Origin: a virus
Lineage: Duplodnaviria; Caudoviricetes
IMG/VR virus record: IMGVR_UViG_3300022173_000041
Span: 1-64,000 of that record
DNA: 64,000 nt
Strand: one strand, 5' to 3'
Below the pieces are notes generated by a model that worked only from the letters and a program-made list of their open reading frames with translations, was not told the origin of the DNA and did no database searches. The translations under genes were made by a program, and so were the position numbers. Below are positions 43,223 to 64,000 of this stretch, one piece after another. Within the stretch, counting starts at the first letter, position 1, and each line of letters begins with the position of its first letter.

Positions 43223-43239
43223 CACTCTCAAGGGGTCAA

Positions 43240-44063: not shown

Positions 44064-44457
44064 TTCTCTCCTCCTCTATTTCATCCATGATGATCTGAGC
44101 CAGCTCAATGTCGTCACCATCTAGCTCACCTTCCATGTCGATCATGGTATTGGAACTAAGGTACGGCGCTACATACAAATCCCATTCTTCTTGGGACGTA
44201 ATTCTATACTGCCAGAGAGGAAGCCCAGATATCATTCCGTGTGATATGTGGATATCCCTAACTGAGCCATCAACGAAATGTCTTACCATCTTTGCAAACC
44301 AACCCCTTTTGGTTTGGTAGAAAGATATTCCTACAAGTCCCTGATCATCACCATTGGCGCCCCAATGTTCCTCGCACCGACGAATTAAGTAGTCGGAAGG
44401 CTCAAGGTCCCATATGCGCTCACTATCTGTACCAAACTCCTCTATATTTAACATCAT
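44047..44457 (-). CDS. Small protein with C-terminal acidic tag (subtype 2)
   Basis: Ends LDGDDIELAQIIMDEIEEERNGLQK. Confidence 0.65.
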   Translation of the reverse strand: MMLNIEEFGTDSERIWDLEPSDYLIRRCEEHWGANGDDQGLVGISFYQTKRGWFAKMVRHFVDGSVRDIHISHGMISGLPLWQYRITSQEEWDLYVAPYLSSNTMIDMEGELDGDDIELAQIIMDEIEEERNGLQK

Positions 44458-44914: not shown

Positions 44915-46192
44915 TTACTTGTAGGGAACAGTCCTGCCATATGGCGCCTTAGCGCCACTGCCAGCCCAGTCCACCCACACCACCGGAAAGTCAGGCTGTG
45001 GCCCAAAGCTTGAGGTATACATATCGGTCAGGAAGATACAGCCGATAACGTCTTCCATCTTGCCGATTTCTGTCATGGCGGAATTGAAATCGGTTCCACC
45101 ACCACCACCAGCATTCCAGCCAATGATGTCCTCTTCTGACTTCGCTTCCAGAGTGTTCTGGATTTGTGTATCGACCGAAATCAGAGTGACGTGCGATACC
45201 AAGTCCTGATTGAGAAGGCTTGCAGCCTCTTCGCACATTTCTTGGATCATCTTCTGGCTAACTGAGCCAGACACGTCCAGACACATCACAAGCTTGTATA
45301 CGTTATCGTTGCCATAACCGGGCATGTATTCGTCATTGCCCAGTCGGCGTCGATTAGGACGGGTCCACGTTCGCGTTGCCTTAGACTTGGCATCGCGAGA
45401 CATATCGCGGATAAGGTCCTTCCAGTCGATCTTCTCCTTGGGGAAAAGATCACCGATCAGACGCTGGAGATTGCCCGGCAATGTACCGGGAGGAGACTTC
45501 TCCAGAGCGCTTGCGACAGTTCGCTTCCACTGCCGGTCGGCAGCTTCGCGTTCTTCGGGCGTGGTTTCGAACATGGTGCCGGGAGCTTCCCCATCACCTT
45601 CTTCGTCGCCATTGCCCTCGCCTTCACCCTCACCATCCTGATCTTCTTCTTCGTCACCTTCACCATCCTGAGGCTGGCCTTTCCCCTTTCCTTTCTGGGG
45701 TTTGCCTTTGCCTTTCTCGGACTTTCCTTTGCCGCCGTCCTTGCCTTCCTTGTCTTCCTTTTTCTGCTGCTTTTCCTCCTGCTGTTGCAGGATTTCATAG
45801 ACAGCTTCGGCAGAAAGTTCGGCAAGCTTGTTATCGCGCAATGCATCACGTGGCATTGGGAAATAGTCTTCGACCACCTTGTTGACAGGGAAGTCGCAGG
45901 CTTCATTCCACATCTTATTGTCGCGATATCGGCGCCGGGCAGGATGCATCATAGCGCAATGCAGGACGGTATGCAGAAGCACACCTTCCATGTATTTATC
46001 GTTCGCGGCATCGTCCACATATGCGGGATTGAAGAAGATATCGACCCCATCGGACCATACCGTCTTGTGAGATTTACTCTCAACAAGATTTGCGCCAAAC
46101 AGAATGGATGCAAAGAACGGATTGCGCTTTGCTACACGTTCCCGTGCAGTAAGCATTCGTCGCATTGCAGTTGGTTTCGTTATTCCAAACAT
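44915..46192 (-). CDS. DUF2201-like peptidase-fold plus vWA protein
   Basis: PFFASILF...LLHTVLHCAMMH...WNEACDFPVN; acidic linker; MIDAS LDVSGSV; GGGGTDF. Confidence 0.8.
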   Translation of the reverse strand: MFGITKPTAMRRMLTARERVAKRNPFFASILFGANLVESKSHKTVWSDGVDIFFNPAYVDDAANDKYMEGVLLHTVLHCAMMHPARRRYRDNKMWNEACDFPVNKVVEDYFPMPRDALRDNKLAELSAEAVYEILQQQEEKQQKKEDKEGKDGGKGKSEKGKGKPQKGKGKGQPQDGEGDEEEDQDGEGEGEGNGDEEGDGEAPGTMFETTPEEREAADRQWKRTVASALEKSPPGTLPGNLQRLIGDLFPKEKIDWKDLIRDMSRDAKSKATRTWTRPNRRRLGNDEYMPGYGNDNVYKLVMCLDVSGSVSQKMIQEMCEEAASLLNQDLVSHVTLISVDTQIQNTLEAKSEEDIIGWNAGGGGGTDFNSAMTEIGKMEDVIGCIFLTDMYTSSFGPQPDFPVVWVDWAGSGAKAPYGRTVPYK

Positions 46193-46210
46193 GAATTCTC
46201 CCTCTTGTTG

Positions 46211-46272
46211 TGAAGCAGATGTATTGGCGCTTCGTGCTGGGGGCGTGGGAAATCCGCCCCCAGTGTCGAAAC
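46211..46272 (-). repeat. Intergenic hairpin element, copy 3
   Basis: GTTTCG-ACA-stem-CA-CGAAGC..GCTTCA. Confidence 0.7.
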
Positions 46273-46286
46273 GTCAAGAGGTACCG

Positions 46287-47333
46287 TCAGACACCCTTGG
46301 ACGCCTGCCCTTCGATCAGCAAAGCGGCGAGCGCTTCGTTGGTCTTCAGGGACTTGTCGCGACCCATGGCATCGGTAACGCACATGGAGGCAACATCCGG
46401 TGACATACGTCCCAGATACTTTGCGAACGCGGCGGCATTCTTGGCCGTCAGGTTGCGCGCGATGGTACCAGCCATCAGATACTGGAAGTGAGCGTCACCG
46501 GGCATTTTGGCCTTCATCGGGTCAGCCAAGATGTCTGCGATCTTCGGCAGACCAGCCGCAAGCCGGTCCAAGAAAGCCGCAAACTGCCTTGAGAAGCCCT
46601 CACCCAGAATAGCCAGCGCGGCATTCTCCAAGACACCCTTCAGTGCCTTCGGGTCCATACCAGACGCCTCGGTGTCGCGCAGAACCTTGTTGAAGTTCTC
46701 CAGCGAGCGGGGCGTAGGAAAGGACGGATGATTGACATCGACCTTGTGGATCAGTTCAGGACGCAACTGGAGAAACGCAATCAGGCGCTTGTCCCAGCCC
46801 CACAGCTTGGTCTTTTCAGTGAAGCCGATTTCATCGACCTCGACCGTAATGTGGGCCATGCGGTTTTCCAGAGGCTTCAACATCTTGTTGTCGCCGCCTC
46901 CATCCTCACGGGTGTTTGAGCCCAGAATGATCCGGTTTTTCTTCGGAAGCGGATACCCACCGCACGAACGGTCCAGAACCAACTGATAAGACATCTGCTG
47001 GAGCTGTACGTTCGCATGACCGAATTCGTCAAAGAACATGACGTGCATTTCGTCATCGTCCTTCGGAACGAACGCGGGCCGGGTCCAATGGGTAGACATT
47101 TCCTCGCGGTTGATCAGCGGCATACCGGTGCCGTCCACAATATCCTTTGTAGAAAGCCGGATGTCGTGCAACTGAGATTTGGCGCCAAAGTCCGTTCGGA
47201 TTTTGGTCATGATCTCAGAGTTGATCACCGCTGACTTGCCGACGCCGGTCGGTCCCTTGATCATGACCGGAATATCCGCATGGATCAGGGGATAGACAAC
47301 GTTAGCAAGTTGGGTAATTTTGCACTTCAACAT
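46287..47333 (-). CDS. MoxR-like AAA+ ATPase
   Basis: GPTGVGKS; FFDEF; LGSNTRED; PLENRM; PTPRS. Confidence 0.85.
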   Translation of the reverse strand: MLKCKITQLANVVYPLIHADIPVMIKGPTGVGKSAVINSEIMTKIRTDFGAKSQLHDIRLSTKDIVDGTGMPLINREEMSTHWTRPAFVPKDDDEMHVMFFDEFGHANVQLQQMSYQLVLDRSCGGYPLPKKNRIILGSNTREDGGGDNKMLKPLENRMAHITVEVDEIGFTEKTKLWGWDKRLIAFLQLRPELIHKVDVNHPSFPTPRSLENFNKVLRDTEASGMDPKALKGVLENAALAILGEGFSRQFAAFLDRLAAGLPKIADILADPMKAKMPGDAHFQYLMAGTIARNLTAKNAAAFAKYLGRMSPDVASMCVTDAMGRDKSLKTNEALAALLIEGQASKGV

Positions 47334-52059: not shown

Positions 52060-53460
52060 GGTAGTTTAGAAGAGGAAAAGGAAATGAGGGGCCGCTAAGC
52101 CCCTCCCATGTTATGCCAAGTGCAATGCTTGATAATCATCCTAGACTATCAACGAAGCGATGGTTTGCCCCGCCCGGCTTACAAGCTATTGTCTGGTTAG
52201 CGTCACGCCTTAAGCGCTAAGCCTGCCATATCGTCGCCTTGCGGCTGATAATCAGGAGAAGGTCGCGCCCGCCATGGTTACTTTCGGACCGCTACACTGG
52301 GACGCTATGCCCATATCGCGAAAGGCTTGATGCCTGTCCTATCCTAGCCACGGTCCAGAGTTGGCACGTTGCTTGCGAAATTATGGTAAGTCTCAAACGG
52401 TTATCTGTCCCATTTGTCCGGTCCTCCGGATATCAGTAGCCACTCGCTATGGCCCCGATTTGCCAGCGCCTTGTCAGGCTGGCGGCGTATTCTCAGAAGC
52501 GTCTATCTCAGTACCTCAGTTCGTTTCAGTCCTCAGAACATAAGGCTTGGTACCAATCCAGTTAGTGGGTCTAACGCATGGCTGATATGCATTCCCGCAT
52601 ACCTCCATTGCCAAGCCTCTATCCATGCCAAATGAAAAACCGCAACGTTCCCCAATGGATAGACGCGCTCCACAAGCCCCTAGGAAGCCCATAGAGAGGG
52701 ATAAACAAGACAGACTGACCTAGATCGCCCTAAAGAAATATCGCCCTCACAGCCTTACGCCCGCCATATGCACGATACCGGGCAGATGGACCATAATCCT
52801 AGCGATAGGAATACAAGGCAGAAAGGCTAGGAAAACCGCCTCTCGTCGCACGTTCCCCTGATACCCACATGCGAACCATTCGCATGTGGAACAGCCCCTA
52901 GAACGCGATACGACGCGCGCCCATGAGCGATCATGTCGGCGCTACCTAGCATCGCCCGAAATGCCCAACTCACCCATGGCCACGCCACGCAATGTTGCAC
53001 CGCAACACCTATGCACCTAGCGCATAGCTCTGCCTAGATTGTGCCACAGTTCCAATGCGTTAGACGCATAGCTCTGGTATGCATAAACCGCATGGCTACC
53101 TGCGAACCACTCGCAACAAGGACCATGCCAAGCCCCCCTCCCCCCATGCATAGCTGGTATGCGTATATGCATGGCTCATCCACATGCGAACCATTCGCAT
53201 CAAGCATCGTGCCACTAGCTATGCACTGCACGCACTGCACCTATGCGCTCCACGCATGGCTAGGTGCTAATGAGAATCATTCGCAAGAAGGGACCCGACC
53301 GGGTGGGGGGCCGCTATCGGAGAGGCCGGGCCGGGGCTGAGCCTTCTCTGCCCTCTCTCCTTTATGAGAAATTTTAGATCAACCCCCATTGTATTGTAAC
53401 GCCATGTAACACATCTTGTAACGCAACGTAACGCAAACTGTAACGCGGTGTAACAGGGGT
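52060..53460. other. Long non-coding divergent control / candidate genome-terminus region
   Basis: No credible CDS; gene strands diverge from here; repeated TGCGAACCATTCGCA hairpins; GC-rich tract at 53290-53345. Confidence 0.6.
53395..53454. repeat. Six helically phased TGTAAC repeats
   Basis: Copies at 53395, 53405, 53417, 53427 (CGTAAC), 53439 and 53449; spacing 10/12/10/12/10. Confidence 0.75.
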
Positions 53461-53469
53461 TTAGAGGTA

Positions 53470-53709
53470 ATGGATTACGAGAAGGAAGTGGAGCTTATAG
53501 CTCAGCTACGAAGGGATATGCCTCGTAATGGGGTGGTGATGTCGTTGTGTGATTTTGCGGAAAAATGTTTGGGGTCGAAACCCAAGATGTCTGAGGTTGA
53601 GCGGCGCCAGAAGAATGCTGAGCGGGTGAAGCGGTGGCGACGGAGTAAGGGTCTTGTCGGGGGAGAGGTTATTGAGATTTCTACAAATCCGTTTGAGGGG
53701 GACACGTAA
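53470..53709 (+). CDS. Hypothetical protein with basic helix
   Basis: RBS AGAGG; ERRQKNAERVKRWRR. Confidence 0.6.
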   Translation: MDYEKEVELIAQLRRDMPRNGVVMSLCDFAEKCLGSKPKMSEVERRQKNAERVKRWRRSKGLVGGEVIEISTNPFEGDT

Positions 53710-53975
53710 TGTCTTTGGCTTCACCGCCTGAGATTTGGGGTCAGGTTCATGGGCGGTTTCAGGAGATTTATGCTGCTGACAATGTTGCTGGGAACCGTAT
53801 TGCGGAATTGTTTAGGGCTGCTGTGCTGGCTGACAAGAAGAACGAGCGTTACCATCATGAGATTATGTTGGAGGCGATAGAGGCTGTGTGCCCGATCCGG
53901 GATGGGTTGGCTGATGCAGCTGACGAGTACGAGGAGTATTTGCGGGATGCAGAGGTAATGGAGGGGTTGGACTGA
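53709..53975 (+). CDS. Tagged paralog family member
   Basis: Ends DEYEEYLRDAEVMEGLD. Confidence 0.7.
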   Translation: MSLASPPEIWGQVHGRFQEIYAADNVAGNRIAELFRAAVLADKKNERYHHEIMLEAIEAVCPIRDGLADAADEYEEYLRDAEVMEGLD

Positions 53976-54241
53976 TGCCAGTGTTATCACCACCGGGGGA
54001 CTGGAGGAGGGCATACAACCGTTTTATGGAGCTGCCTGATGATGTCCGTGAAGAGGTCTCGGCTTGTTATCGCGAGTTAACGGATACTCCAGCGAACCTT
54101 CAGAGGATGAACCATGAGCTGATGCTGGAGGCTCTGAGCCTTGTTATTATTCCGCCCGAAAATATCAGTGGGCTGGATGCTGCGGCGATTGAGTACGATG
54201 CAGCGATGCTGGAGCTTGAGGTAATGGAGGGGTTGGGCTGA
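53975..54241 (+). CDS. Tagged paralog family member
   Basis: Ends IEYDAAMLELEVMEGLG. Confidence 0.7.
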   Translation: MPVLSPPGDWRRAYNRFMELPDDVREEVSACYRELTDTPANLQRMNHELMLEALSLVIIPPENISGLDAAAIEYDAAMLELEVMEGLG

Positions 54242-54525
54242 TGATTAGTGACGATCTAGCCGATATCCGGAAGCGGATACTCAACAGCAACGAATATATA
54301 AAAATTGTTAGGAAGTTGGTTGAGGACGCGGATAAAGCGAACAGCCTTCATGGGGGAATTACCGCGTCTGAGGTTAACGACATTATGGAAAAGGCGCTGA
54401 CCGGGTTTATGGCAGCCGCTTTTAACAGATCGTCTGCGGAGGAGAGGGCTGTGGAATACGACGAGGCGATGCGAGCGCAGGATATTATAGAGGGATTAGG
54501 CAATGCCGAGAACATCAAGTCCTAG
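54241..54525 (+). CDS. Tagged small protein
   Basis: Ends VEYDEAMRAQDIIEGLGNAENIKS. Confidence 0.7.
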   Translation: MISDDLADIRKRILNSNEYIKIVRKLVEDADKANSLHGGITASEVNDIMEKALTGFMAAAFNRSSAEERAVEYDEAMRAQDIIEGLGNAENIKS

Positions 54526-54769
54526 TGACTGGGAGCCGCCGTTTCAGGCAGCGATGGCTATCCGGAGGGATGATTTCAATACGTGGGTTAAGATCAGGGA
54601 CGCCTACGCAGCTAAGTGCCGGTTGGATGTAAACAACGAAAAATACCATCACGAGCTGATGTGGGAGACATTGAACGAATATTCGGCTGGGGTTCCGACC
54701 GGGTTTGAAGTAGCCGCGCTGGAATATGACGAAGCCATGCGCGCTGAGAAGATCATGGATGGGTTGTGA
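54503..54769 (+). CDS. Tagged paralog family member
   Basis: Ends LEYDEAMRAEKIMDGL. Confidence 0.7.
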   Translation: MPRTSSPSDWEPPFQAAMAIRRDDFNTWVKIRDAYAAKCRLDVNNEKYHHELMWETLNEYSAGVPTGFEVAALEYDEAMRAEKIMDGL

Positions 54770-54984
54770 TGACGGAGACATGGAACTGCGATGGATGCGG
54801 TACCCATCGCAAGAGATTGGGGAGCGGGGATTATTGCCGGGATTGCGTGAAGAGGTTCAGCGCTGCCAGACGATACAATCGGCGCCAAGAGCAGTTTGAG
54901 ACTGAGCTTCTTACAAAGCAGATTGATACGAGGGATTACGAGGACGCGATGCGAGCCGAAGAAATCATGGAGGGGCTGAAATGA
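54766..54984 (+). CDS. Zinc-ribbon protein with C-terminal tag
   Basis: CDGC...CRDC; ends RDYEDAMRAEEIMEGLK. Confidence 0.7.
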   Translation: MMTETWNCDGCGTHRKRLGSGDYCRDCVKRFSAARRYNRRQEQFETELLTKQIDTRDYEDAMRAEEIMEGLK

Positions 54985-55103
54985 AATTAGATGTGGTTGG
55001 CGTCTTGATGGTCTTAACCGCGCTACTCGCCAGCGCCTACATAATTACCTTGGCAGATAGATCGTATTCAGAACGACGCATGGAGATAAGTAAATGCCGT
55101 TAG
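54981..55103 (+). CDS. 40-aa membrane micropeptide (not in ORF track)
   Basis: ATGA overlap; MKLDVVGVLMVLTALLASAYIITLADRS... Confidence 0.5.
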   Translation: MKLDVVGVLMVLTALLASAYIITLADRSYSERRMEISKCR

Positions 55104-55159
55104 TGGCGTCGGCGGGAACAAAGCCAAATAATAAACACAATTAAGGGGGAGTGTGCGTG

Positions 55160-55444
55160 ATGAATGGAATGTCTGATCGCTGGTTTACCCTGTGCAAACA
55201 GTACAAGAACTATTCGGTCGAAATCAGGAACCGAATAGACGATATCTATGAACCGGAACGCGAGGAAATTCACAAACTCTATGAGACCGGCGGAAGAAGC
55301 GCGAGGTTCGATCTGTACTCAAATGCTTTGGAGAAAGCCATCTGGTCAGTAACCGGTACTGGACCTGAAGCCGTATTCGGTACTTCTCATGAAGAATACG
55401 AAGAAGCAATGCGAGCTGAAGAACTCATGGAGGGCTTGAAGTGA
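55160..55444 (+). CDS. Tagged paralog family member
   Basis: Ends EEYEEAMRAEELMEGLK. Confidence 0.7.
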   Translation: MNGMSDRWFTLCKQYKNYSVEIRNRIDDIYEPEREEIHKLYETGGRSARFDLYSNALEKAIWSVTGTGPEAVFGTSHEEYEEAMRAEELMEGLK

Positions 55445-55704
55445 CAGTGAGAGAGCCAAGCGAGAAGTGGGGGCGGGCAGTGACCCGGTACAGCGCCCTA
55501 CCTACAATTCTCCAGCACAAAATTGCAGATGCATACAAGCCATACCATGACGGCAATGATGATCATTTCTATGACAAGTGCGCCGACAATCTGGAAGCCG
55601 CAATCAATGCTCACTTTGGCGAGCTGATAGTATCTTTAACGCAAGAAGCCGACGCATACGATGAAGCTATGCGAGCTGACACCATCATGGAAGAACTAGG
55701 GTGA
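55441..55704 (+). CDS. Tagged paralog family member
   Basis: Ends DAYDEAMRADTIMEELG. Confidence 0.7.
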   Translation: MTVREPSEKWGRAVTRYSALPTILQHKIADAYKPYHDGNDDHFYDKCADNLEAAINAHFGELIVSLTQEADAYDEAMRADTIMEELG

Positions 55705-55708
55705 TACC

Positions 55709-55945
55709 GTGGCTAACGAGGGACTGAGTAGGTGGTATCTGGACGGATACCGCGCCCGCATGAAGAGAACCCCAAGAGAGAACAATCCAAGACATAGATA
55801 CCGTGGAAAACCTAACTCAGTGAAGGCTGTTCGTTGGGATCAGGGCTGGCAAGCCGCTGACGATCATCTCCAGCCAGTTATTAAGTGGGATCAAGAACAG
55901 GATATTATCGATGCCCTCCAAGAAGAAGCGACTTCCTATACTTGA
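55709..55945 (+). CDS. Rmf/CrpP-fold-like protein with degenerate tag
   Basis: WYLDGYRARM...NP...WDQGWQAA; EQDIIDAL. Confidence 0.55.
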   Translation: MANEGLSRWYLDGYRARMKRTPRENNPRHRYRGKPNSVKAVRWDQGWQAADDHLQPVIKWDQEQDIIDALQEEATSYT

Positions 55946-56264
55946 ACCAATTCCGGCGCCGGATGGAAAGACCAAAGCTTTCTTGAAGGGATGGGATGCC
56001 AGAATGGCTAACAAGCCACGTTCTGTCGCGCCTGAATCAACTATTTACAAAAGGGTCAGGGTGGGTGGAATGTTAACTTGGGAATTTAATAATGATACTA
56101 GGGTGAGGTCATCCCGCGTCAGGAAACAATGGATCACTGGATACACCTCTGCATCCCGCGAGATAGGCAAGCAGCACAGAGCAATCGCTCATGCCGCTGA
56201 AACCAAGCGCATGAATGAAGAGAACGATATCTTTGCCGAGCTTGGAGAGGAATTCGCTGCCTGA
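55911..56264 (+). CDS. Rmf/CrpP-fold-like protein with degenerate tag
   Basis: AFLKGWDARM...QWITGYTSA; ENDIFAEL. Confidence 0.5.
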   Translation: MPSKKKRLPILEPIPAPDGKTKAFLKGWDARMANKPRSVAPESTIYKRVRVGGMLTWEFNNDTRVRSSRVRKQWITGYTSASREIGKQHRAIAHAAETKRMNEENDIFAELGEEFAA

Positions 56265-56275
56265 TCCTTGAATAG

Positions 56276-56288
56276 ACACAAATTGTGT
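56276..56288. promoter_or_regulatory. Operator-like site
   Basis: ACACAAATTGTGT upstream of the gene at 56325. Confidence 0.5.
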
Positions 56289-56324
56289 TTACGTAACTTA
56301 ATACGCCAATCAAGAGGGAACACC

Positions 56325-56594
56325 ATGTCGAAAGAAGAAGAGAAGAAGATCATCACGCTCAAGCTGGATCAGGCTGAGCTGGCTGTTCGTATTGTCGAGG
56401 CCATGACGGATACCGCGCGACCGGAGGGACGTACCCCGGAAGAGTGTCTTGAAGACATCTCCGAGGAAGGAAGACAGTCTGCCCTGAATGCTGCCTTCGC
56501 GGCTGCCACTTACTTTGTGGAAGTCATGAAGGGGGAAATCCCCAACGTCACCAGCGAGAAGATCAAAAAGAGCGACGGTCGTTGGTCTAACTGA
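56325..56594 (+). CDS. Hypothetical protein
   Basis: RBS AAGAGGGAA. Confidence 0.65.
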   Translation: MSKEEEKKIITLKLDQAELAVRIVEAMTDTARPEGRTPEECLEDISEEGRQSALNAAFAAATYFVEVMKGEIPNVTSEKIKKSDGRWSN

Positions 56595-56866
56595 TGGGCT
56601 CCAAGGGATCATCTTCCGCTGTGTCCACTAGCAATGCTCAAAGCCTATTCCAGACAGTGGAAGGCTGGCGCGAATACTGCCGTCGTGTGGAGCTGCTACA
56701 CAACATGCCAACTGATGGCCAGAGGCAGGCCATCATCAATGAAATACACCAGCAGGAAAACGGCCATCTTTCTGGCCTTATTAACGCGCAAGAATACCAA
56801 GACATCATGAAAGCCAACGAGCTTTATGAAAAGCTCATTAACGAGGGAAACGAAAATGACGAGTAA
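56594..56866 (+). CDS. Tagged small protein
   Basis: QEYQDIMKANELYEKL near the C-terminus. Confidence 0.65.
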   Translation: MGSKGSSSAVSTSNAQSLFQTVEGWREYCRRVELLHNMPTDGQRQAIINEIHQQENGHLSGLINAQEYQDIMKANELYEKLINEGNENDE

Positions 56867-57164
56867 GGAAGAATTCGAAGCGATGGCGAAGCTTGGTGGC
56901 CTTTGTGATCCCAAGGTCCCGCAGAGCGCGCGGGACGCCACCTTCGCGATGATGAAGATCATCCAAGACAGCCAGAACCCGGCAGATGTCTCTTTGGCCG
57001 TCTGTATGGGTCTGTCTTATGCCTTGGCGGTATCCAAGGACGAAACCAAGACCATGGAGGTAATCGTAGCGACTGCCCTCCAGATGAAAGAGGAACTTCT
57101 GAAACTGAAGCCCACCATCGACAAGCTCTTCTCTGAGATGGTCAAGAAGGGAGAAGTCCAGTGA
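56856..57164 (+). CDS. Hypothetical helical protein
   Basis: RBS GAGGGAAA. Confidence 0.6.
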   Translation: MTSKEEFEAMAKLGGLCDPKVPQSARDATFAMMKIIQDSQNPADVSLAVCMGLSYALAVSKDETKTMEVIVATALQMKEELLKLKPTIDKLFSEMVKKGEVQ

Positions 57165-57637
57165 AAAGCGCAAAGCAAATGCTGGATCACATGGCTGGTT
57201 TCGCCAAGCACATCTTCGATAGCACTTCAGATCATGAAGTGATCCCGATGTGGGTGGTCGAAAGCGAAACCGAAGTGGTGCCGATACTGGCGCCATTCTC
57301 CGGTGATGACGAGAAGAACGCTTCAATTGCATTCGTCCGCGAGAAGGCCAAAAGCATGAATGCCAATGTCGTTGGCTTCATGTGCGAGGCTTGGGTGGTC
57401 GAGAAGATCGGCGCCGATATCGATGAGGCTGAGAAGATCATCCCAAGTGAACACGATGACCGACGTGAGATTATCCAAATCCACGCGGAAGATCGTGACG
57501 GCAACGTGGCGATTGGTTCCTATTACATTCTTCGCCCCGAGCATGGAACGCCAAAGCTTTCTCCCTTCAGGTTATACGATGATGACATGAAGATTGGTGG
57601 CCGCTTCACGTCAATTCTGGAAAAGGTAAAGCATTAA
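57161..57637 (+). CDS. Conserved hypothetical protein
   Basis: GFMCEAWVVE...IPSEHDDRREII..HAE. Confidence 0.7.
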   Translation: MKSAKQMLDHMAGFAKHIFDSTSDHEVIPMWVVESETEVVPILAPFSGDDEKNASIAFVREKAKSMNANVVGFMCEAWVVEKIGADIDEAEKIIPSEHDDRREIIQIHAEDRDGNVAIGSYYILRPEHGTPKLSPFRLYDDDMKIGGRFTSILEKVKH

Positions 57638-57638
57638 C

Positions 57639-57926
57639 ATGGCCGACAAAGTGGACGTGAAAGAAAGCGTTTTGCATATTCTGGAAGACCTGAAGGGAGG
57701 GCCGGGGGCTTCCGGTCTCATCAATGATGTCTCCAGTCTATTTGATAATCTTCCAATGGATTACGTTCAAGATACGTTGAGTGTGCTGCTCGCATTTGCC
57801 ATCGACAACGCGGAGGACAAGCAAGCCGCCTACGCGAGGGTCAAGGAAGTCATTGAGACACTGGCTCACTTTGGCGAGCCTTCTTTCAGGGAAACGTTGA
57901 GGAAAATCAAGGAAAGGCCGCACTAA
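57639..57926 (+). CDS. Hypothetical protein
   Basis: In-operon ORF. Confidence 0.6.
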   Translation: MADKVDVKESVLHILEDLKGGPGASGLINDVSSLFDNLPMDYVQDTLSVLLAFAIDNAEDKQAAYARVKEVIETLAHFGEPSFRETLRKIKERPH

Positions 57927-58207
57927 TGAAAGCTGGACCACAACAGGACCTGAAGGCGTTCTCCTGCCCTGTGTGCGAGAAGGTGCTGGACGCTTGCTCC
58001 GTTATCAACGAAGATGGCAGTAAGGCGTTGCCAGCCAAGGGTGACGTGTCGGTGTGCGCCTACTGCGGCAACCTGATGATCTTTGATGGCAAAAGCCTCG
58101 AACCGAGAGAGCTGACCCAGAAAGAACACGCCACCGTCATGGCCGATCCTTACTTTCACAAGAGCATGGAAGTGATCGATGTTTTCAAAAAAAGGTTTCG
58201 GCATTGA
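57926..58207 (+). CDS. Zinc-ribbon protein
   Basis: CPVC...DVSVCAYCG. Confidence 0.65.
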   Translation: MKAGPQQDLKAFSCPVCEKVLDACSVINEDGSKALPAKGDVSVCAYCGNLMIFDGKSLEPRELTQKEHATVMADPYFHKSMEVIDVFKKRFRH

Positions 58208-58223
58208 TTATAAAATTCAATCA

Positions 58224-58436
58224 ATGGAAGATAAGCAAAGAATTCAGCGCATCCTGATCGAAATCGAGCAAGATCGCGCAAGGAATAAAAAAGAAACCGC
58301 CGCCAAGATGGAGATTGAGCTTAAGCTTTCTCTTCTGGAAAAAGAGTATCGCGAGGCTCTAAAGGCTCAAGAGATCATGGACGGACTTGATGAAGAAGAA
58401 ACCACGCCGCCTAGCCCCTCCGAAACTCCCAAGTAA
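58224..58436 (+). CDS. Coiled-coil protein with tag
   Basis: KEYREALKAQEIMDGL. Confidence 0.65.
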   Translation: MEDKQRIQRILIEIEQDRARNKKETAAKMEIELKLSLLEKEYREALKAQEIMDGLDEEETTPPSPSETPK

Positions 58437-58638
58437 AGAATACCGAGCGATCTGGAGGGTGGTGGATGGCGCCATCAGAAATGCGCTTGACATGCATCCT
58501 GACTACCTTACGAAGAAAGGGTCGGACCGATCCGCCGCGCGTATGTCTATCGCGAAGCGTGTTGTCGGTGCGGTACTGGGCTTCCAAGCCGAAAGGCTTA
58601 AGAAGGGTCGCTCTGGGGGAGCCTCCAGCGACCAATAG
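58387..58638 (+). CDS. Conserved alphaproteobacterial-phage-type hypothetical protein
   Basis: IWRVVDGAIRNALDMHPDYLT...AKRVVG. Confidence 0.65.
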   Translation: MMKKKPRRLAPPKLPSKEYRAIWRVVDGAIRNALDMHPDYLTKKGSDRSAARMSIAKRVVGAVLGFQAERLKKGRSGGASSDQ

Positions 58639-58846
58639 GAGTGTTGGGTTAGTTACGGCCCCACCTCCAGTCGTCGTGGTCTATACACCCATGACGGGCA
58701 GTCGTGTTTTGCTATGGACGCATGACTGCCAAGCCATCGCTACGCTAAATGGCGATGACGATTGCCATCTGCGACGATGGCGATAAAGAGAGCGGAGGGG
58801 GCGTTGTAAGGCGCCCCCTCTACCTTGAGAGAAAGGATCAGAGGGA

Positions 58847-59296
58847 ATGCCCGAGAGTTACCTCCAGCAGCTTCAAAAAGAGCGCAAAGCCAGACTTAAA
58901 CGCTTCTCAGATGCCTCAGTCGAAAAGCCACCACCGCCCAAGCAGGTTGTTACAAATCCTACAATCGAAGAAGAGAACCCCACCGAAAGCATCGAACAGG
59001 TTCTGACCCGGCTAGAGGGGAACTTCAAAACTATCTTCAAGGAGGTTTGTAGATATTACAATATCTCCATGCTGGACGTGATGTCTTCGCGCCGCACACT
59101 AAAGATAGCCATGGCCCGCCATGTTGTTGCCTACATCGCCAGTCAACATACCAACCTGTCCCTGTCTCAAATCGCACTTAGATTGGGTCGGGACCGCAGC
59201 ACCGTAAGCCACGCGATATCGCGGGTGAAGGAGCTGATGCATACTGATAGGTTGCCAGCAGACATCGCCACCATCAAGCAAAGGCTTGGGATATGA
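58847..59296 (+). CDS. DnaA C-terminal (domain IV-like) HTH protein
   Basis: VCRYYNIS..DVMSSRR...ARHVVAYI...SLSQIA..LGRDRSTVSHAI. Confidence 0.8.
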   Translation: MPESYLQQLQKERKARLKRFSDASVEKPPPPKQVVTNPTIEEENPTESIEQVLTRLEGNFKTIFKEVCRYYNISMLDVMSSRRTLKIAMARHVVAYIASQHTNLSLSQIALRLGRDRSTVSHAISRVKELMHTDRLPADIATIKQRLGI

Positions 59297-59604
59297 GCGC
59301 CTTTCAAATCGTCGTATGGGGATTTTTTGCTCTAGGAATTCTTGGCGTATGCATTGCCTTTACTAAACTGGCGATAGACTATCGGCGCCATCTCAGGGAA
59401 GAGCAAGAACATGAACGCATTATGTCTGAGATGCGAGACCGTGTTTTCGAGCAGCATGAAGCCAAGAGAATAAAGAAAGAAGAGAGCGACCGGCTGATAG
59501 CCAAACGTCAGTTGGATAGAATGAACTACCGAGAATACACAGACGCCATAAAAGCAGAAGAGATTATGGCAGCTTTAGAGAGGGAACAAAATGTCAAAGG
59601 ATAA
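59293..59604 (+). CDS. Membrane-anchored coiled coil with tag
   Basis: N-terminal TM helix; REYTDAIKAEEIMAAL. Confidence 0.7.
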   Translation: MSAFQIVVWGFFALGILGVCIAFTKLAIDYRRHLREEQEHERIMSEMRDRVFEQHEAKRIKKEESDRLIAKRQLDRMNYREYTDAIKAEEIMAALEREQNVKG

Positions 59605-59953
59605 CTGGAAAGCCGGGATCGAAAACATCGAACAGATGGAGCGCGATGGTCTGGCCCAACTAACAGACGACGAGAGCGTTCTGGATCAATGCTCACATCA
59701 TGTTTGCCTGCGCGTTTCGCCAGAAGCTCTGGCTCGTATCCCAGATGCGTGGGTAGACCAGACAGCATTCGGAGAATGCTCAGAGTGCGGAGAGAAGATA
59801 TTCTTCCGCAACAACGCTCCAAAGAACGCGGTCAGAATATGTTATGACTGCGCTGGCGACTTATTGTCGGCAGATGAGAACCCGATACTGATATCACGCA
59901 AAAGCGCTGTTGATGAGATCAAAGGCTTTATCAAGAAGAAGGAGCAACACTAA
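59591..59953 (+). CDS. Zinc-ribbon protein
   Basis: CSECG...ICYDC. Confidence 0.65.
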   Translation: MSKDNWKAGIENIEQMERDGLAQLTDDESVLDQCSHHVCLRVSPEALARIPDAWVDQTAFGECSECGEKIFFRNNAPKNAVRICYDCAGDLLSADENPILISRKSAVDEIKGFIKKKEQH

Positions 59954-60480
59954 TGCAGACGTTCGATCTTTTGGGACAATTGTTCCTGTACTTCACTGCT
60001 GGCGTCTTCTGGGGATGGAAGACTTATGACTTCGCCACGGACTTTCTGGAGAAGCGCCGCGTCAAGAACAACATGACTGCTTTCATCAATAGGATGAGGA
60101 CTGACGCCGCGCCTACTCTTGATAGGCTGATCAAGGAAGCCAGAGAGCAAGTCAAAAAGCCGAAAGGTGAGCCTGTGGTCCAGACTTTCAAATGGCGCCA
60201 TGGAGGGAAGATCAACGAAGTCAAGATCGTGATCGACCCTGACCTTGATAGCTCCATCCCGGGCACCAGCGATGAGTTTGAGGAGCTGATAAAGAACGGG
60301 GACGCTGGTAAGCTGGAGGACCTTCTAAACAACATTGCCCAGCCTTCCGAGAAGAAGAAGATGGCAGAGGTTGATCAGTTTACCTTCTCGCCTCATTCTG
60401 TGGCCCAGATGAAGCTAGTTGGGATGTCCCCTGACGAGCTGGTGGTCAAGATGCTGAAAGCTGCCGGGAGAATGGATTGA
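59953..60480 (+). CDS. Membrane-anchored hypothetical protein
   Basis: N-terminal TM; ends MSPDELVVKMLKAAGRMD. Confidence 0.65.
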   Translation: MQTFDLLGQLFLYFTAGVFWGWKTYDFATDFLEKRRVKNNMTAFINRMRTDAAPTLDRLIKEAREQVKKPKGEPVVQTFKWRHGGKINEVKIVIDPDLDSSIPGTSDEFEELIKNGDAGKLEDLLNNIAQPSEKKKMAEVDQFTFSPHSVAQMKLVGMSPDELVVKMLKAAGRMD

Positions 60481-60656
60481 GAGACCCACAAGGACGCCCG
60501 ATTAGGCGACCAGAGCTGAAGCGATATAGCCGCGCCAAATTCGTGGAGAGCGGCTATATCATTCCTCGCCTGCAAGACAAGAAGGTAGATACCCATGCTG
60601 TTGGCTTCACGGCTGAACTTCTCGCCCAGTCATATGAAGAGGGCGAGGGGGATTAA
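60477..60656 (+). CDS. Possible 59-aa protein (not in ORF track)
   Basis: TTG start overlapping the upstream TGA; fills the gap. Confidence 0.35.
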   Translation: MRDPQGRPIRRPELKRYSRAKFVESGYIIPRLQDKKVDTHAVGFTAELLAQSYEEGEGD

Positions 60657-60768
60657 GGGGCTCTACAGGGCCAAGGCTCTGGAGCCCCTCACTTCCGGTA
60701 ATGGTATTGACCAAACACCCAGCCCGGGTACAGTAGCCTCCAGTAGTCCATATGGAGGCTTAGTGACC

Positions 60769-61113
60769 ATGAGCAACAACGCCTATACCGGGTACACCGC
60801 AACTCTTCAAAACCTTCAGGCTGTTTATCCCTACAATGGGTCCGTCGCCACCGCTGGGTATCAGCAGGCATATGTGACTGGAACTACCGCCGCTGGAACC
60901 GTAGGAGGGCCGTTCCCTGCCACATGGAGCGGCTGGGTTACGGCGCCTAATACCAACGCGGTACTGGGCCAAGCCGGAAGTTTCCCCGGGGCATACATTC
61001 TGCCAGCAGAGCCTATCTACACCATGAACCCGCCCTCCCGCGAGGACTTCACGGAAGACGAGATTAACCGGGCGCTGGAAATCATTGACGAGCTGGAAGT
61101 CCGGTATGCCTAA
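60769..61113 (+). CDS. Low-complexity (T/G/A/Y) protein with tag subtype 2
   Basis: RBS GGAGG; ends DFTEDEINRALEIIDELEVRYA. Confidence 0.65.
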   Translation: MSNNAYTGYTATLQNLQAVYPYNGSVATAGYQQAYVTGTTAAGTVGGPFPATWSGWVTAPNTNAVLGQAGSFPGAYILPAEPIYTMNPPSREDFTEDEINRALEIIDELEVRYA

Positions 61114-61516
61114 AGGCGTCCCCGGTCCTGTCTACACCAACGAGCATCAGGCGCTTCACCAGCGCCTGCGTTGGCTCCGACAGAACATGCAGCCCTACAT
61201 GACCCAAGAACAGCTCGCCACAGCCTCTGGGGTGAGCCTCTCATTCATTAAATCGTATGAGGTTGGCGGTGTCGCCCATATGAGTACCGACACCATCAGG
61301 AAGCTCGCCCACGGCCTTGGCTGCAAGATGACTATTCGCCTGATGCGAGTAAGTGATCGAGAGATAATCGACTGCCTGACGGAAGGTCCACCTTTGCCCG
61401 CCGTCCCAAAACGTCCGGATAAAATTTCGGTGGAAGCCCGAACGCGGGCCTTATCACGCGAACGTTCTCCTTGGTCAGAAGCTCGCCAGCAGCGATTGGC
61501 GCGACGACGTAAATAG
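61106..61516 (+). CDS. XRE-family HTH regulator
   Basis: LRWLRQ...MTQEQLATASGVSLSFIKSYEVG...TIRKLAHGLG. Confidence 0.8.
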   Translation: MPKGVPGPVYTNEHQALHQRLRWLRQNMQPYMTQEQLATASGVSLSFIKSYEVGGVAHMSTDTIRKLAHGLGCKMTIRLMRVSDREIIDCLTEGPPLPAVPKRPDKISVEARTRALSRERSPWSEARQQRLARRRK

Positions 61517-62384
61517 AACGCCGGAACTTCAAATTAGGCTCTTGGACTTTGGAGAAAGATGGTTGGGTAGCTTGCCAAGCTGCTTTGCAGGAAGCTGCTA
61601 GTTCAGCAAATTCCAAGGGCTCAAGGCTAAAAGCACTATCAGGACCCCCATCAGACCGACGTAGCGTAAGATGCTTTTCAATGATAGTGGCTCCAAACGC
61701 CACGGCAGCAACGCTAACCCCCACACCAAGAGTATGATCGCTAAGGCCGACCACATGCCTACCTCCCATCAGTTCGCTGAGTGGACCCAAGGCCGGTAAG
61801 TTGGACTGGTCTGCTGGCGCCGGATAGGCGCTGACGCAATGCAACAGAGCGATATCCTCGTTGCCTGCGCGCCCCCTAACAGTCCTTACCGCCGTGCAAA
61901 TCTCCGTCGTGTTTGCCATCCCGGTGGATATGATGACGGGACGCTTCGTTTCGGCAATTCGTGCGAGTAGAGGAACATCAGTAATTTCAAAGCTCGCCAC
62001 CTTGTAAGCGTTAGGAGAAAGATGCTCCAAGAGGCTGACCGAGCTTTCATCGAATACGGATGCGAATATTTCCAGCCCGCGAACAGTACGAGCATAATCA
62101 AATACTCGCTCCATCCACTCAAAAGGAGTATGCGCTTCCGCATAGAGATCATAAAGCGTTCGCCCAGCCCACGGTCCTTCCTTGATGAGAAAGTCATCGC
62201 TATCGCTCTTCATGGTCATGGTATCAGGCGTGTAGCACTGAAGTTTTACAGCGTCGGCGCCAGCGAACTTGGCTTCGTCAATCAGCCTGAAGACATTGTT
62301 GATGTCGCCAAGATGATTACCGCTCAGCTCCGCTATCAGGTACGGCGGCTGACTTATCGAGATTTCGCGGTTTCCAATCTTCAT
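61332..62384 (-). CDS. pseI: Pseudaminic acid synthase (NeuB family)
   Basis: IAELSGNH.G; KLQCYTPDTMT; LLHCVSAYPAP; GLSDHT; IEKH; GGPDSAFSLEP; SAF domain RRSIYVV...IRP.FGLPPK. Confidence 0.9.
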   Translation of the reverse strand: MKIGNREISISQPPYLIAELSGNHLGDINNVFRLIDEAKFAGADAVKLQCYTPDTMTMKSDSDDFLIKEGPWAGRTLYDLYAEAHTPFEWMERVFDYARTVRGLEIFASVFDESSVSLLEHLSPNAYKVASFEITDVPLLARIAETKRPVIISTGMANTTEICTAVRTVRGRAGNEDIALLHCVSAYPAPADQSNLPALGPLSELMGGRHVVGLSDHTLGVGVSVAAVAFGATIIEKHLTLRRSDGGPDSAFSLEPLEFAELAASCKAAWQATQPSFSKVQEPNLKFRRSIYVVAPIAAGELLTKENVRVIRPAFGLPPKFYPDVLGRRAKVDLPSGSRLSLDHLLASGE

Positions 62385-62562
62385 CTGCCATAGCCCTCAT
62401 CAGTCTGGACACTTCAAGGTCCATTATTAAAATCTTGCCCAGCGCCTCTTTGGTGGCCTTGGGATTAGCCTTCATGGCTATCTTCAGGATATCCATCCAG
62501 TTCTGGTTATTGTGAGCGCGAACGCGACCTATCTGGTCAAGAATTTGATCGTCTGTTGTCAT
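62317..62562 (-). CDS. Small helical protein of the type found in nonulosonate clusters
   Basis: DQILDQIGRVRAHNNQNWMDILKIAMK; ATGA overlap with the aminotransferase stop. Confidence 0.55.
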   Translation of the reverse strand: MTTDDQILDQIGRVRAHNNQNWMDILKIAMKANPKATKEALGKILIMDLEVSRLMRAMADEDWKPRNLDKSAAVPDSGAER

Positions 62563-63677
62563 CTGAAGATTTTCCTTAATCTTGCTATGTGTTCTGGCTT
62601 GATGTCGTATGAGCAAACCTCAATCATAATAAGTCTATTCAGCGACTTGTATGCTTCACCCTCAATTAGCTCATACATTCTGTCTTGAGTTAACCAAGTA
62701 TTTGAAAGTGGCTTATCCAGAAGATTGCCATCGTATCCAACCTCAACAGGTATGGTGAGGTTCTGATTTCTGAACATCTGGACCATTGATGTCGCTGAGT
62801 AGTCTATATTAACAATAAGAGGAAGAGCGTAGTAGGAATGCTCGCAGTCAGTCCTGACTTCCATCTTTTTGAAATAGGTTCCCTCAACAGCTTCTATAAT
62901 ACCGCGAGCCACTTCCTGCCTGCCAGCAACAATCTTCGGAAGCTTCTTGAGCTGCTCGCGAGCGATGGCTGCGGTAATCTCGGTCATTCTTAGATTAAGC
63001 CCCGGCGCTGCCTGCCCACGGCACTCACCATGGTTAATGGCGCCTGCCAGCTTTACATAAAGCCCTTCATCATTGTCGTTAACAACGCAGACGCCACCTT
63101 CACCGGTCTGGATGTGCTTGTGGACATTAAGGGAGAACACCCCGATATGACCGATGGTCCCGGTGTATTTACCGTTCTCCTTAGCCATGATGGCTTGAGC
63201 GTTGTCTTCGATCAGGTAGATGCCGCGACTATCGCAGATGCTGCGTAGCTGATGCAGCTTGGCTGGATGCCCGAACATATTGGTAGCAATGACCGCCTTG
63301 GTGCTTTCTGTGATCTGATTAGCCACGTCAGAAGGAGATAGACAGAAAGTATCAGGCTCAATGTCTGCCAGAATGATGGTGGCGCCAAGAACGGCAGGAG
63401 CGCATGCAGTGGCCGACATGGTGAAGTAAGGGACAATCACTTCGTCCCCGGGACCAACGCCAATAGCCATACAGGCAGCCAGAAGACCTGAGGTAGCCGA
63501 GTTGCATGGTATGGCGTTGTCTACCTTGAAAAACTTCTCCCACTCAGTCTGCAAACCGCGAACCTCAGGGCCAGCACCCATCTTGCTTGCTACATATCCA
63601 GATAGGTTGCCGCTGCGGATAACCCGCAAAACAGCCGCCTCTTCTTCTTTCCCGATAGTGTTGAATTTACCGATCAT
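62559..63677 (-). CDS. DegT/DnrJ/EryC1/StrS sugar aminotransferase (PseC-like role)
   Basis: NSATSGL; GPGDEVIVP..TMSATA; IEDNAQA; FSLNVHKHIQTGEGG (PLP lysine); start trimmed to 63677. Confidence 0.9.
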   Translation of the reverse strand: MIGKFNTIGKEEEAAVLRVIRSGNLSGYVASKMGAGPEVRGLQTEWEKFFKVDNAIPCNSATSGLLAACMAIGVGPGDEVIVPYFTMSATACAPAVLGATIILADIEPDTFCLSPSDVANQITESTKAVIATNMFGHPAKLHQLRSICDSRGIYLIEDNAQAIMAKENGKYTGTIGHIGVFSLNVHKHIQTGEGGVCVVNDNDEGLYVKLAGAINHGECRGQAAPGLNLRMTEITAAIAREQLKKLPKIVAGRQEVARGIIEAVEGTYFKKMEVRTDCEHSYYALPLIVNIDYSATSMVQMFRNQNLTIPVEVGYDGNLLDKPLSNTWLTQDRMYELIEGEAYKSLNRLIMIEVCSYDIKPEHIARLRKIFR

Positions 63678-64000
63678 AGGTAGCTCTTCAGTTCTTCGAC
63701 CGTCAGGAATTTGCTGTTGTTGATGCTGGTATACTCTTGTGGATTTGTTATGTTGGACACGCCATCGCTGTTGATTATATACCGGTCCCATGCTTCCAGC
63801 GCTCCTCTAGCTTCTTCCTCCGTCATGAGGATTTCGTGAAGTTTCTCGCCCGGCCTGATGCCAACGATGGTCTGCGGCAGTGTCGGCGCCATAGCTCTGG
63901 CTAGATCGACTACGCGCATGGATGGAAGCTTCGGGATGAAAATCTCCCTTCCCTTCATCATTCCTAGCGAGGAAAGAACAAGATTTACAGCTTCGTCCAT
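63674..64000 (-). CDS. pseB: UDP-GlcNAc 4,6-dehydratase (PseB/FlaA1-like), C-terminal part only
   Basis: MKGREIFIPKLPSMRVVDLARAMAP...VGIRPGEKLHEILM...YTSINNSKFLTVEEL. Confidence 0.85.
   Translation of the reverse strand: MDEAVNLVLSSLGMMKGREIFIPKLPSMRVVDLARAMAPTLPQTIVGIRPGEKLHEILMTEEEARGALEAWDRYIINSDGVSNITNPQEYTSINNSKFLTVEELKSYL

What the first reader, a model, noticed from the sequence alone, without database searches (positions are those of the whole stretch)
53709..59604. Block B: ten proteins end in the same helix, EY-x-[ED]-A-[MIL]-[RK]-A-x-[ED]-[IL]-M-[ED]-G-L - a candidate new modular tag system
Seen: DEYEEYLRDAEVMEGL (53709), IEYDAAMLELEVMEGL (53975), VEYDEAMRAQDIIEGL (54241), LEYDEAMRAEKIMDGL (54503), RDYEDAMRAEEIMEGL (54766), EEYEEAMRAEELMEGL (55160), DAYDEAMRADTIMEEL (55441), QEYQDIMKANELYEKL (56594), KEYREALKAQEIMDGL (58224), REYTDAIKAEEIMAAL (59293), with weaker copies in 55709 and 55911. 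The attached N-domains differ: a helical paralog family, a zinc ribbon, a coiled coil, a TM anchor and Rmf-like domains. Synonymous codon variation shows protein-level selection. The terminal ATGGAGGG doubles as a Shine-Dalgarno for some downstream genes but cannot explain the upstream EY..AM.A part. Inference: an F-box-like logic with a variable client-recognition domain plus a constant docking helix. The helix would deliver many host targets to one hub (a phage ATPase, host protease or RNA polymerase), or act as a common capsid-loading or localisation signal. I know of no described family with this motif.
Basis: partly seen in the sequence, partly recalled or inferred. Interest (0 to 1): 0.9.

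Follow-up and report, generated by a model that had tools for sequence, protein, structure and literature searches.

The report
Shared C-terminal helix on phage proteins
In an uncultured 74-kb phage and its relatives, many small proteins with unrelated front parts end in the same short acidic helix, which looks like a common handle for a partner that has not been found.

Summary
There are none elsewhere in the 73.7-kb genome, and shuffles give zero. Synonymous codons are fully randomised (120 identical pairs against 117.7 expected), so selection acts on the peptide.

A model built only from these ten copies finds 28 more copies in six related metagenomic phage contigs. Every one lies 0-16 residues from a C-terminus in the same gene block.

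Six of the ten window proteins share one new ~60-residue three-helix N-domain. The other four are a zinc ribbon, a coiled coil, a membrane anchor with coiled coil, and one more type, and they share only the helix. A distant relative has the helix on six proteins and lacks that N-domain altogether.

AlphaFold folds the N-domain confidently (pLDDT 94-98). It leaves the linker and helix unplaced (pLDDT 51-57).

Pfam, PHROGs, NCBIfam, PDB and the literature search gave no match.

The most likely reading is a portable docking helix for one constant partner.

Only the last codons (Glu-Gly) are also shaped by the Shine-Dalgarno site of the next gene.

This scan has noted comparable tags, with different sequences, in other uncultured phages.

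The parts
53709..53975 (+). 88-aa member of the three-helix N-domain family; motif at 53925-53969, 1 residue before the stop
   Evidence: N-domain E 9e-17
53975..54241 (+). 88-aa family member; motif at 54191-54235
   Evidence: E 1e-21
54241..54525 (+). 94-aa divergent family member; motif at 54454-54498, followed by an 8-residue extension
   Evidence: E 7e-6
54503..54769 (+). 88-aa family member, the protein modelled with AlphaFold; motif at 54722-54766, ending at the stop
54766..54984 (+). 72-aa four-Cys zinc-ribbon protein carrying the motif at 54934-54978; no family N-domain
   Evidence: N-domain E 9
55160..55444 (+). 94-aa family member (a GTG start at 55151 is also possible); motif at 55394-55438
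   Evidence: E 2e-9
55441..55704 (+). 87-aa family member of the Y-D-x-C-A-D subtype; motif at 55654-55698
   Evidence: E 5e-15
56594..56866 (+). 90-aa protein with a different N-part; motif at 56792-56836 plus a 9-residue extension; orthologues in L005 and L009 keep the motif
58179..58436 (+). 85-aa charged coiled-coil protein; motif at 58344-58388 plus a 15-residue extension; orthologues in L002, L005 and L009 keep the motif
59293..59604 (+). 103-aa protein with an N-terminal membrane helix, a charged coiled coil and the motif at 59533-59577; orthologues in L002, L005 and L009 keep the motif
55709..55945 (+). 78-aa RMF-like protein ending in a shorter, distinct acidic helix (W-D-x-E-Q-D-I-I type), conserved in five relatives; a related variant, not the motif itself
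55911..56264 (+). 117-aa second RMF-like protein with another acidic C-terminal helix variant
60595..61113 (+). 172-aa protein at the end of the block; its C-terminal helix is of the 'Block A' type (F-x-E-E-E-I-x-x-A), which scores just above noise with the motif model

Best explanation
The motif is L-x3-A-D-E-Y-[ED]-E-[AT]-[MLI]-[RK]-A-[QE]-E-[IL]-M-[ED]-x-L. It is a portable, protein-level interaction helix of about 17-22 residues with a net charge near -4. It sits on a variable-length linker at the C-terminus of many small proteins in one co-directional, tightly coupled gene block. I infer that this is the early or host-takeover block. The phages that carry it form a lineage of uncultured genomes of about 72-77 kb. 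The front modules differ and turn over between phages: a new three-helix domain present in 3-7 paralogs per genome, a zinc ribbon, coiled coils, two kinds of membrane anchor and others. The helix stays constant. The most likely mechanism is that the helix docks in trans on one constant surface of a shared partner, which could be a phage or a host protein, so that different modules are brought to, or controlled through, the same site. The membrane-anchored carriers would place that site at the cytoplasmic face of the inner membrane. Shown here: the motif, its protein-level conservation, its modularity, its independence from the N-domain, and that no known family matched. Inferred: binding in trans, a single partner, and early expression. 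The last two or three codons are additionally constrained because they hold the ribosome-binding site of the next gene.
For: Ten copies against 0 expected. Synonymous sites are randomised. A model built from the window's copies alone finds 28 further copies of at least 8 bits in relatives L002, L005, L008, L009, L011 and L014. All are on the + strand of the syntenic block and 0-16 residues from the C-terminus. Noise scores 6 bits or less. With proteins from the library search there are 42 unique instances: Tyr is invariant and Glu(-1), Glu(+2), Ala(+6), Glu(+8), Ile/Leu(+9), Met(+10) and Leu(+13) are nearly so. With the helix removed, the N-parts fall into one 26-member family plus many unrelated groups. 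An HMM of the N-domain alone finds that domain in six window proteins and in none of the ORFs of L014, where six proteins still carry the helix. The AlphaFold2 model made with 27 sequences gives pLDDT 94-98 for residues 1-61. The linker and helix 62-88 reach only pLDDT 51-57, yet residues 70-87 are helical. The linker region varies in length in the alignment. Motif variants follow the orthologue class rather than the genome (identity 0.55 for same class in different genomes, 0.42 for different classes in the same genome). This means long vertical purifying selection on every carrier.
Against: The helix is not classically amphipathic: its hydrophobic moment at 100 degrees is 0.62, against 0.67 for the background. 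Its hydrophobic positions follow a heptad-like spacing continuous with upstream leucines, which would also suit helix-helix bundling among the carriers themselves. Low pLDDT for the helix could also reflect a shallow alignment rather than true detachment. The most conserved neighbour, 58390-58638, at first looked like a hub. It belongs to a far wider family (more than 570 proteins, also in unrelated phages), so it is not specifically linked to the motif.
Confidence: 0.5

Rival explanations
1. Co-assembly helix. The helices bind one another in homo- or hetero-bundles. This would gather the soluble paralogs, the zinc-ribbon protein, the coiled-coil proteins and the membrane-anchored carriers into one complex at the membrane, with no separate hub.
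For: The hydrophobic positions -7, -4/-3, 0, +3/+4, +10 and +13 have heptad spacing. In the coiled-coil carriers they continue the register of upstream leucines. Two carrier classes are themselves coiled coils and two are membrane anchored. The hydrophobic moment is not one-sided.
Against: The net charge of about -4.4 per helix, with only one conserved basic residue, makes self-association electrostatically unfavourable. The conserved stretch covers only 2-3 heptads. AlphaFold gave no confident packing of the helix. Oligomer prediction could not be run.
Confidence: 0.2
2. Timer or degron. The shared helix is a recognition element for a protease or unfoldase, either host-encoded or one of the phage's own AAA+ or MoxR-vWA proteins. 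All tagged early proteins would then be removed or remodelled together.
For: The genome encodes an AAA ATPase at 40308-42260 whose best PHROG is 'ATP-dependent protease'. It also encodes a MoxR-type ATPase at 46287-47333 and a DUF2201 metallopeptidase-like/vWA protein at 44915-46192. The MoxR/DUF2201 pair is kept next to the block in L005.
Against: In four of the ten copies, and in many orthologues, 4-16 extra residues follow the helix, so it is not a free C-terminal degron. MoxR/DUF2201 pairs are widespread in elements without this motif (own knowledge). There is no direct evidence of any kind.
Confidence: 0.1
3. Cis-acting structural element. The helix merely completes or stabilises each small protein, for example as a solubility or folding cap. 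It looks 'shared' because all carriers descend from one ancestor.
For: Six of the ten carriers are full-length paralogs. All outside relatives found by the library search with E below 0.001 are full-length family members.
Against: The helix is kept on carriers with no detectable N-domain similarity, including a four-Cys zinc ribbon and membrane proteins. It is also kept in L014, which lacks the family domain. AlphaFold does not pack it on the N-domain although that domain is modelled at pLDDT 94-98. The helix is the most conserved segment of every class.
Confidence: 0.12
4. Nucleic-acid-level element. The repeated 45-nt segment is kept as a ribosome-binding or translational-coupling cassette, an RNA structure or a recombination site at gene borders, and the peptide is a by-product.
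For: Every copy ends within about 20 nt of the next start codon. GGAGG-like codons for Glu-Gly serve as the next gene's Shine-Dalgarno site in six copies. Where the site lies further downstream, these two residues are relaxed (copies at 59533 and 56792).
Against: Synonymous positions are at the random expectation (120 against 117.7). DNA identity between copies is only 65-82% and no long exact matches were seen. The upstream 12 residues have no such role. Position +12 is variable in relatives while the rest is kept.
Confidence: 0.03

Closest known systems
C-terminal sliding-clamp-binding tails of phage T4 gp43, gp33 and gp55 (own knowledge)
   Same: A short C-terminal peptide shared by otherwise unrelated phage proteins, which plugs them all into one hub.
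   Different: The T4 tail is a short hydrophobic peptide at the extreme C-terminus and its hub (gp45) is known. Here the element is a 17-22-residue acidic helix, sometimes followed by up to 16 residues, on 10 or more small proteins, and the partner is unknown.
F-box, SOCS-box and poxvirus PRANC adaptor proteins (own knowledge)
   Same: A variable recognition module plus a constant docking module, expanded into many paralogs.
   Different: Those boxes are folded domains of 40-50 residues that bind Skp1 or Elongin. Pfam found none here. The constant part is a single helix, and bacteria have no such ligase scaffold.
Capsid-targeting sequence of the T4 internal proteins (own knowledge)
   Same: A short shared address peptide on unrelated phage proteins.
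   Different: The T4 sequence is N-terminal, is cleaved by the prohead protease and sits on late, packaged proteins. This motif is C-terminal and lies in the block next to the regulatory region, with replication-type genes.
Shared C-terminal helix tags noted by this scan in other uncultured phages (e1-5660278, e1-5355048, e1-5682696, e1-5665326, e1-5407493, e1-5779871)
   Same: Arrays of small, fast-changing, probably early proteins that end in one lineage-specific helix. In one case the tag DNA also holds the next gene's start signals.
   Different: The motif sequences are different. Those cases are mostly huge phages with 17-100 carriers. Here the genome is 74 kb, with about 10 carriers and a well-defined paralog N-domain. 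None has an identified partner either. These are unchecked AI notes.
'Block A' acidic helix of the same genome (42323-44457, minus strand, plus the C-terminus of 60595-61113)
   Same: A C-terminal acidic helix with an aromatic residue, an acidic run, Ala and an Ile-Ile/Met pair, on unrelated small proteins of the same phage.
   Different: The spacing between the aromatic residue and the Ala differs. It scores only 3-5 bits with the Block B model. It lies on the other strand in another region.

Membership tests
Any curated protein family (Pfam-A, PHROGs v4, NCBIfam 20) | A profile match at or above the family threshold | tested here: not met
   None of the ten proteins reaches a curated cut-off. 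The best Pfam E-values are 0.009-0.3, for unrelated families. PHROGs E is at least 0.012. NCBIfam E is at least 0.0056, at 15.6 bits against a cut-off of 650.
Any solved structure or known fold | Significant sequence or fold similarity to a PDB or BFVD entry | tested here: inconclusive
   Profiles of the family and of the 30-residue motif region against PDB sequences gave best E 0.43 and 0.1. Foldseek against PDB and BFVD gave best E 4.6 and 2.5. VIA-align gave a best Z of 7.0, within the range expected for unrelated helical bundles.
MinD/FtsA-type membrane-targeting amphipathic helix | A C-terminal helix that is basic or neutral and has one strongly hydrophobic face | tested here: not met
   Mean net charge is -4.4. 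The hydrophobic moment is 0.62, against 0.67 for the background.
C-terminal degron (ssrA-like) | A recognition peptide ending at the free C-terminus | tested here: not met
   Four of the ten copies carry 8-15 further residues, and orthologues carry 3-16.
T4-type capsid-targeting sequence | An N-terminal position and removal by the prohead protease | tested here: not met
   The motif is always 0-16 residues from the C-terminus. Cleavage is not testable with these tools.
F-box / SOCS-box type adaptors | A folded box domain that binds a ligase scaffold | tested here: not met
   No Pfam F-box or SOCS match. The constant element is a single helix. The functional analogy itself was not tested.
Translational-coupling / Shine-Dalgarno cassette | Conservation at the DNA level, with a purine-rich site 5-13 nt before the next start | tested here: not met
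   This holds only for codons +11 to +13 in six copies. Over the whole motif the synonymous sites are random.
Ribosome modulation factor (PF04957), for the two 'weak-copy' proteins | A profile match above the gathering score of 27.9 bits | tested here: inconclusive
   Five of nine orthologues match below threshold, with best E 3.6e-4. The G-Y-x-A ... N-P ... W-x-x-G-W pattern is conserved.

The most novel reading that the evidence does not exclude
A lineage of 72-77-kb phages runs a modular adaptor system. One constant acidic docking helix plugs a changing set of client-binding modules into a single hub. The modules include a fast-duplicating three-helix domain, a zinc ribbon and membrane anchors, with a sister helix type on RMF-like ribosome binders. 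This would be a bacterial-virus counterpart of F-box or dockerin logic. Together with the similar tags this scan has noted in other phages, it would point to a general, undescribed way of organising phage early proteins.
Probability: 0.3. Interest if true: 0.85.

Novelty: new variant of a known kind. Interest (0 to 1): 0.62.

Why it matters
Most small early phage proteins have no known function, and they are usually studied one at a time. A conserved handle shared by many of them gives a single experimental entry point: one bait peptide could reveal the partner through which a whole set of takeover or anti-defence proteins works. The case is clean. The copies are old, selection is on the protein, orthologues exist in several phages, the N-domain model is confident and the helix is tethered. 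It also defines two undescribed protein families: the three-helix N-domain, and the widespread 83-residue basic protein at 58390-58638. If other phage lineages have independently evolved comparable tags, as unchecked notes from this scan suggest, the principle may be general.

Tried and rejected
**Searches for the phage and the motif elsewhere**
- Megablast of the block and of 20 kb of the window against 50,697 phage records gave no match.
- tblastn of one paralog against the same records gave no match.
- A word-indexed search of 5.8 billion proteins with one paralog found only itself.
- A back-translated motif search in IMG/VR gave 30 pattern matches but no confirmed relative. I estimate that number is about what chance would give.
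- Strict DNA patterns gave 0 hits in viral contigs, genome contigs and metagenome contigs. The motif was therefore not found in the representative bacterial genomes, either in prophages or in host proteins.
- The ESM Atlas gave nothing usable.
- Five literature searches found no description.

**The neighbour 58390-58638 as a possible hub**
- It is the most conserved protein of the block (71-79% identity) and strongly basic.
- I set this idea aside. The family has more than 570 members, including one in an unrelated 72-kb phage beside a portal gene and others in Rhodobacter phages.
- Scans for it in bacterial genomes and in IMG/VR found no confirmed relative.

**Other ideas tested and dropped**
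- I tested for genome-wise concerted change of the motif, which would mark co-evolution with a genome-specific partner. It was not seen.
- The resemblance of the N-domain to a J-domain (PDB 1IUR, E 0.43) was not backed by the fold search and is dropped.
- The first AlphaFold run, with five sequences, gave an unusable model (pLDDT 56).


Full report
**Context**

The window is the first 64 kb of a single 73,677-bp contig. The contig encodes a portal, a major head protein, tail-fibre-like proteins, an endolysin and Erf/RecE-type recombination proteins. It also encodes AAA and MoxR ATPases and a nonulosonic-acid sugar operon, so it is a phage genome. It has no near relative among 50,697 deposited phage genomes. 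The closest cultured matches of one virion protein are at 27-31% identity, in phages of Roseobacter, Pelagibacter, Ochrobactrum and cyanobacteria.

The finding lies in a block of about 24 small, co-directional genes on the + strand, at 53470-61113. Stop and start codons in the block overlap or nearly touch. The block begins after a 1.4-kb ORF-poor region from which genes diverge in both directions.

**The observation**

A loose pattern for the motif hits ten places in six frames of the whole genome. Shuffles give none.

The conservation is in the peptide, not the DNA. Where two copies have the same residue, they use the same codon 120 times out of 308, against 117.7 expected from local codon usage. 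DNA identity between copies is only 65-82%.

Each copy ends within about 20 nt of the next start codon. In six copies the Glu-Gly codons spell GGAGG-like sequences at the right distance. Where the ribosome-binding site lies further downstream, those two residues are relaxed.

**Relatives**

Word-based and pattern-based searches found nothing at first. A profile of the ten proteins, run against 1.84 billion representatives, found 17 outside proteins of 78-99 residues. All are full-length relatives of the 88-residue paralogs.

Their contigs are syntenic pieces of related uncultured phages: L002, L005, L008, L009 and L011. A more distant one, L014, was reached through a conserved neighbour gene.

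A motif model built only from the window's ten copies scores 28 further proteins in these contigs at 8-26 bits. Everything else scores 6 bits or less. All 28 are on the block's coding strand, and in all of them the motif ends 0-16 residues from the C-terminus.

Pooled, there are 42 distinct instances. They give the consensus L-x3-A-D-E-Y-[ED]-E-[AT]-[MLI]-[RK]-A-[QE]-E-[IL]-M-[ED]-x-L, with the Tyr invariant. This fits its second job as part of a ribosome-binding site.

**Modularity**

With the helix cut off, an HMM of the N-terminal 63 residues finds that domain in six window proteins: 53709, 53975, 54241, 54503, 55160 and 55441. It finds 2-5 such paralogs in each of the five closer relative contigs.

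The other window carriers lack the domain. They are:
- the four-Cys zinc ribbon at 54766;
- the protein at 56594;
- the coiled coil at 58179;
- the membrane-anchored coiled coil at 59293.

The last three have orthologues in two or three other phages, and these keep the motif while the rest of the protein diverges to 30-50% identity. A further class, a membrane protein with a basic juxtamembrane stretch, carries the motif in L002, L008 and L011.

L014 carries the motif on six consecutive proteins. Their front parts match neither each other nor the family domain. The helix is therefore an independent module that outlives the domains it is attached to.

Motif variants track the orthologue class rather than the genome. 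Identity is 0.55 for the same class in different genomes and 0.42 for different classes in the same genome. This means long vertical purifying selection. There is no sign of gene conversion or of genome-specific co-variation.

**Structure**

With a 27-sequence alignment, AlphaFold2 models residues 1-61 of the 54503 protein as a compact three-helix domain at pLDDT 94-98. Residues 62-69 form a linker, and residues 70-87 form a helix at pLDDT 51-57 only. The linker varies in length across the family.

Neither the family nor the 30-residue motif region matches any PDB sequence. The model has no convincing fold neighbour in the PDB or among predicted viral structures.

The helix is strongly acidic, with a mean net charge of -4.4, and it is not one-sidedly hydrophobic. 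This argues against a membrane-binding helix. It fits a helix buried in a groove or a bundle. The membrane carriers have their basic residues after the membrane helix, so by the positive-inside rule their motif faces the cytoplasm. This is an inference from the sequences.

**Interpretation**

The facts fit a portable docking helix that brings different modules to one constant partner surface.

Neither the partner nor the effect of docking is shown. I considered the neighbour at 58390-58638 as a hub because it is basic and by far the most conserved protein of the block (71-79% identity). It belongs to a family of more than 570 proteins found in many other phages, so nothing ties it to the motif.

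The heptad-like spacing of the hydrophobic residues keeps a helix-helix co-assembly model alive. A shared degron is possible but fits poorly with the variable C-terminal extensions. A purely cis structural role fits poorly with the zinc-ribbon, membrane and L014 carriers and with the AlphaFold result. A nucleic-acid explanation is excluded except for the last codons.

No binding statement in this report rests on a computation.

**Novelty**

No curated family, solved structure or paper that I could find describes the motif, the N-domain or the design. The idea of a shared short docking peptide is well known, for example in the T4 clamp-binding tails and in F-box-type adaptors, so I rate this a new variant of a known kind.

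This scan has recorded similar shared C-terminal helices, with different sequences, in several other uncultured phages. Those notes are unchecked and I did not test them. If they hold, the phenomenon is broader than this lineage.

The same genome also has a second, distinct acidic-helix type, in 'Block A' and on the 60595 protein.

Noticed in passing
window 58390-58638 (+): An 82-83-residue, strongly basic protein is the most conserved gene of the block (71-79% identity to relatives). It belongs to an unannotated family with more than 570 members in metagenomes, in Rhodobacter capsulatus phages and in an EBPR siphovirus. In an unrelated 72-kb phage (L013) a 139-residue form sits just upstream of the portal gene. 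No Pfam or PHROG family matches it.
   Followed up: partly
window 55709-55945 and 55911-56264 (+): Two adjacent proteins and their orthologues share the G-Y-x-A ... N-P ... W-x-x-G-W signature of ribosome modulation factor. Five of nine match PF04957 below threshold (best E 3.6e-4). Each ends in its own conserved acidic helix. They may be phage-encoded ribosome-hibernation-like factors.
   Followed up: partly
window 42323-44457 (-) and the C-terminus of 60595-61113 (+): Five small proteins on the other strand, plus the last protein of Block B, end in a second acidic helix type (F-x-E-E-D-I-x-x-A-x-x-I-I). The 60595 orthologues in L002, L005 and L014 keep it. It scores only just above noise with the Block B model.
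   Followed up: partly
window 52100-53470: A 1.4-kb ORF-poor region lies between the leftward genes and Block B. It holds a three-copy repeat family (52867, 53098 and 53182, partly palindromic) and a tandem 22-nt repeat at 53394-53437, just before the first gene. Gaps without called genes lie at the same place in L005 and L009. It is probably the regulatory or origin region.
   Followed up: no
window 58847-59296 (+): A 149-residue protein consists essentially of the DNA-binding domain IV of DnaA (PF08299, E 6e-20) without the ATPase part. It is conserved in L002, L005 and L014 but absent from L009.
   Followed up: no
window 44915-47333 (-): A MoxR-type ATPase sits next to a DUF2201 protein (metallopeptidase-like domain plus vWA-like domain). 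A further AAA ATPase carrying DUF7025 lies at 40308-42260. These are candidate remodelling machines and possible readers of the tags. This was not tested.
   Followed up: no
window 61332-63791 (-): NeuB-type nonulosonate synthase and DegT aminotransferase genes are part of a sugar operon that continues past the window. The operon is conserved next to the block in L005, L009 and L014.
   Followed up: no
L005 6099-6665 (-): A relative encodes a protein with the T7-type protein kinase domain (PF27024) in the leftward gene set facing the block. This fits a host-takeover region.
   Followed up: no
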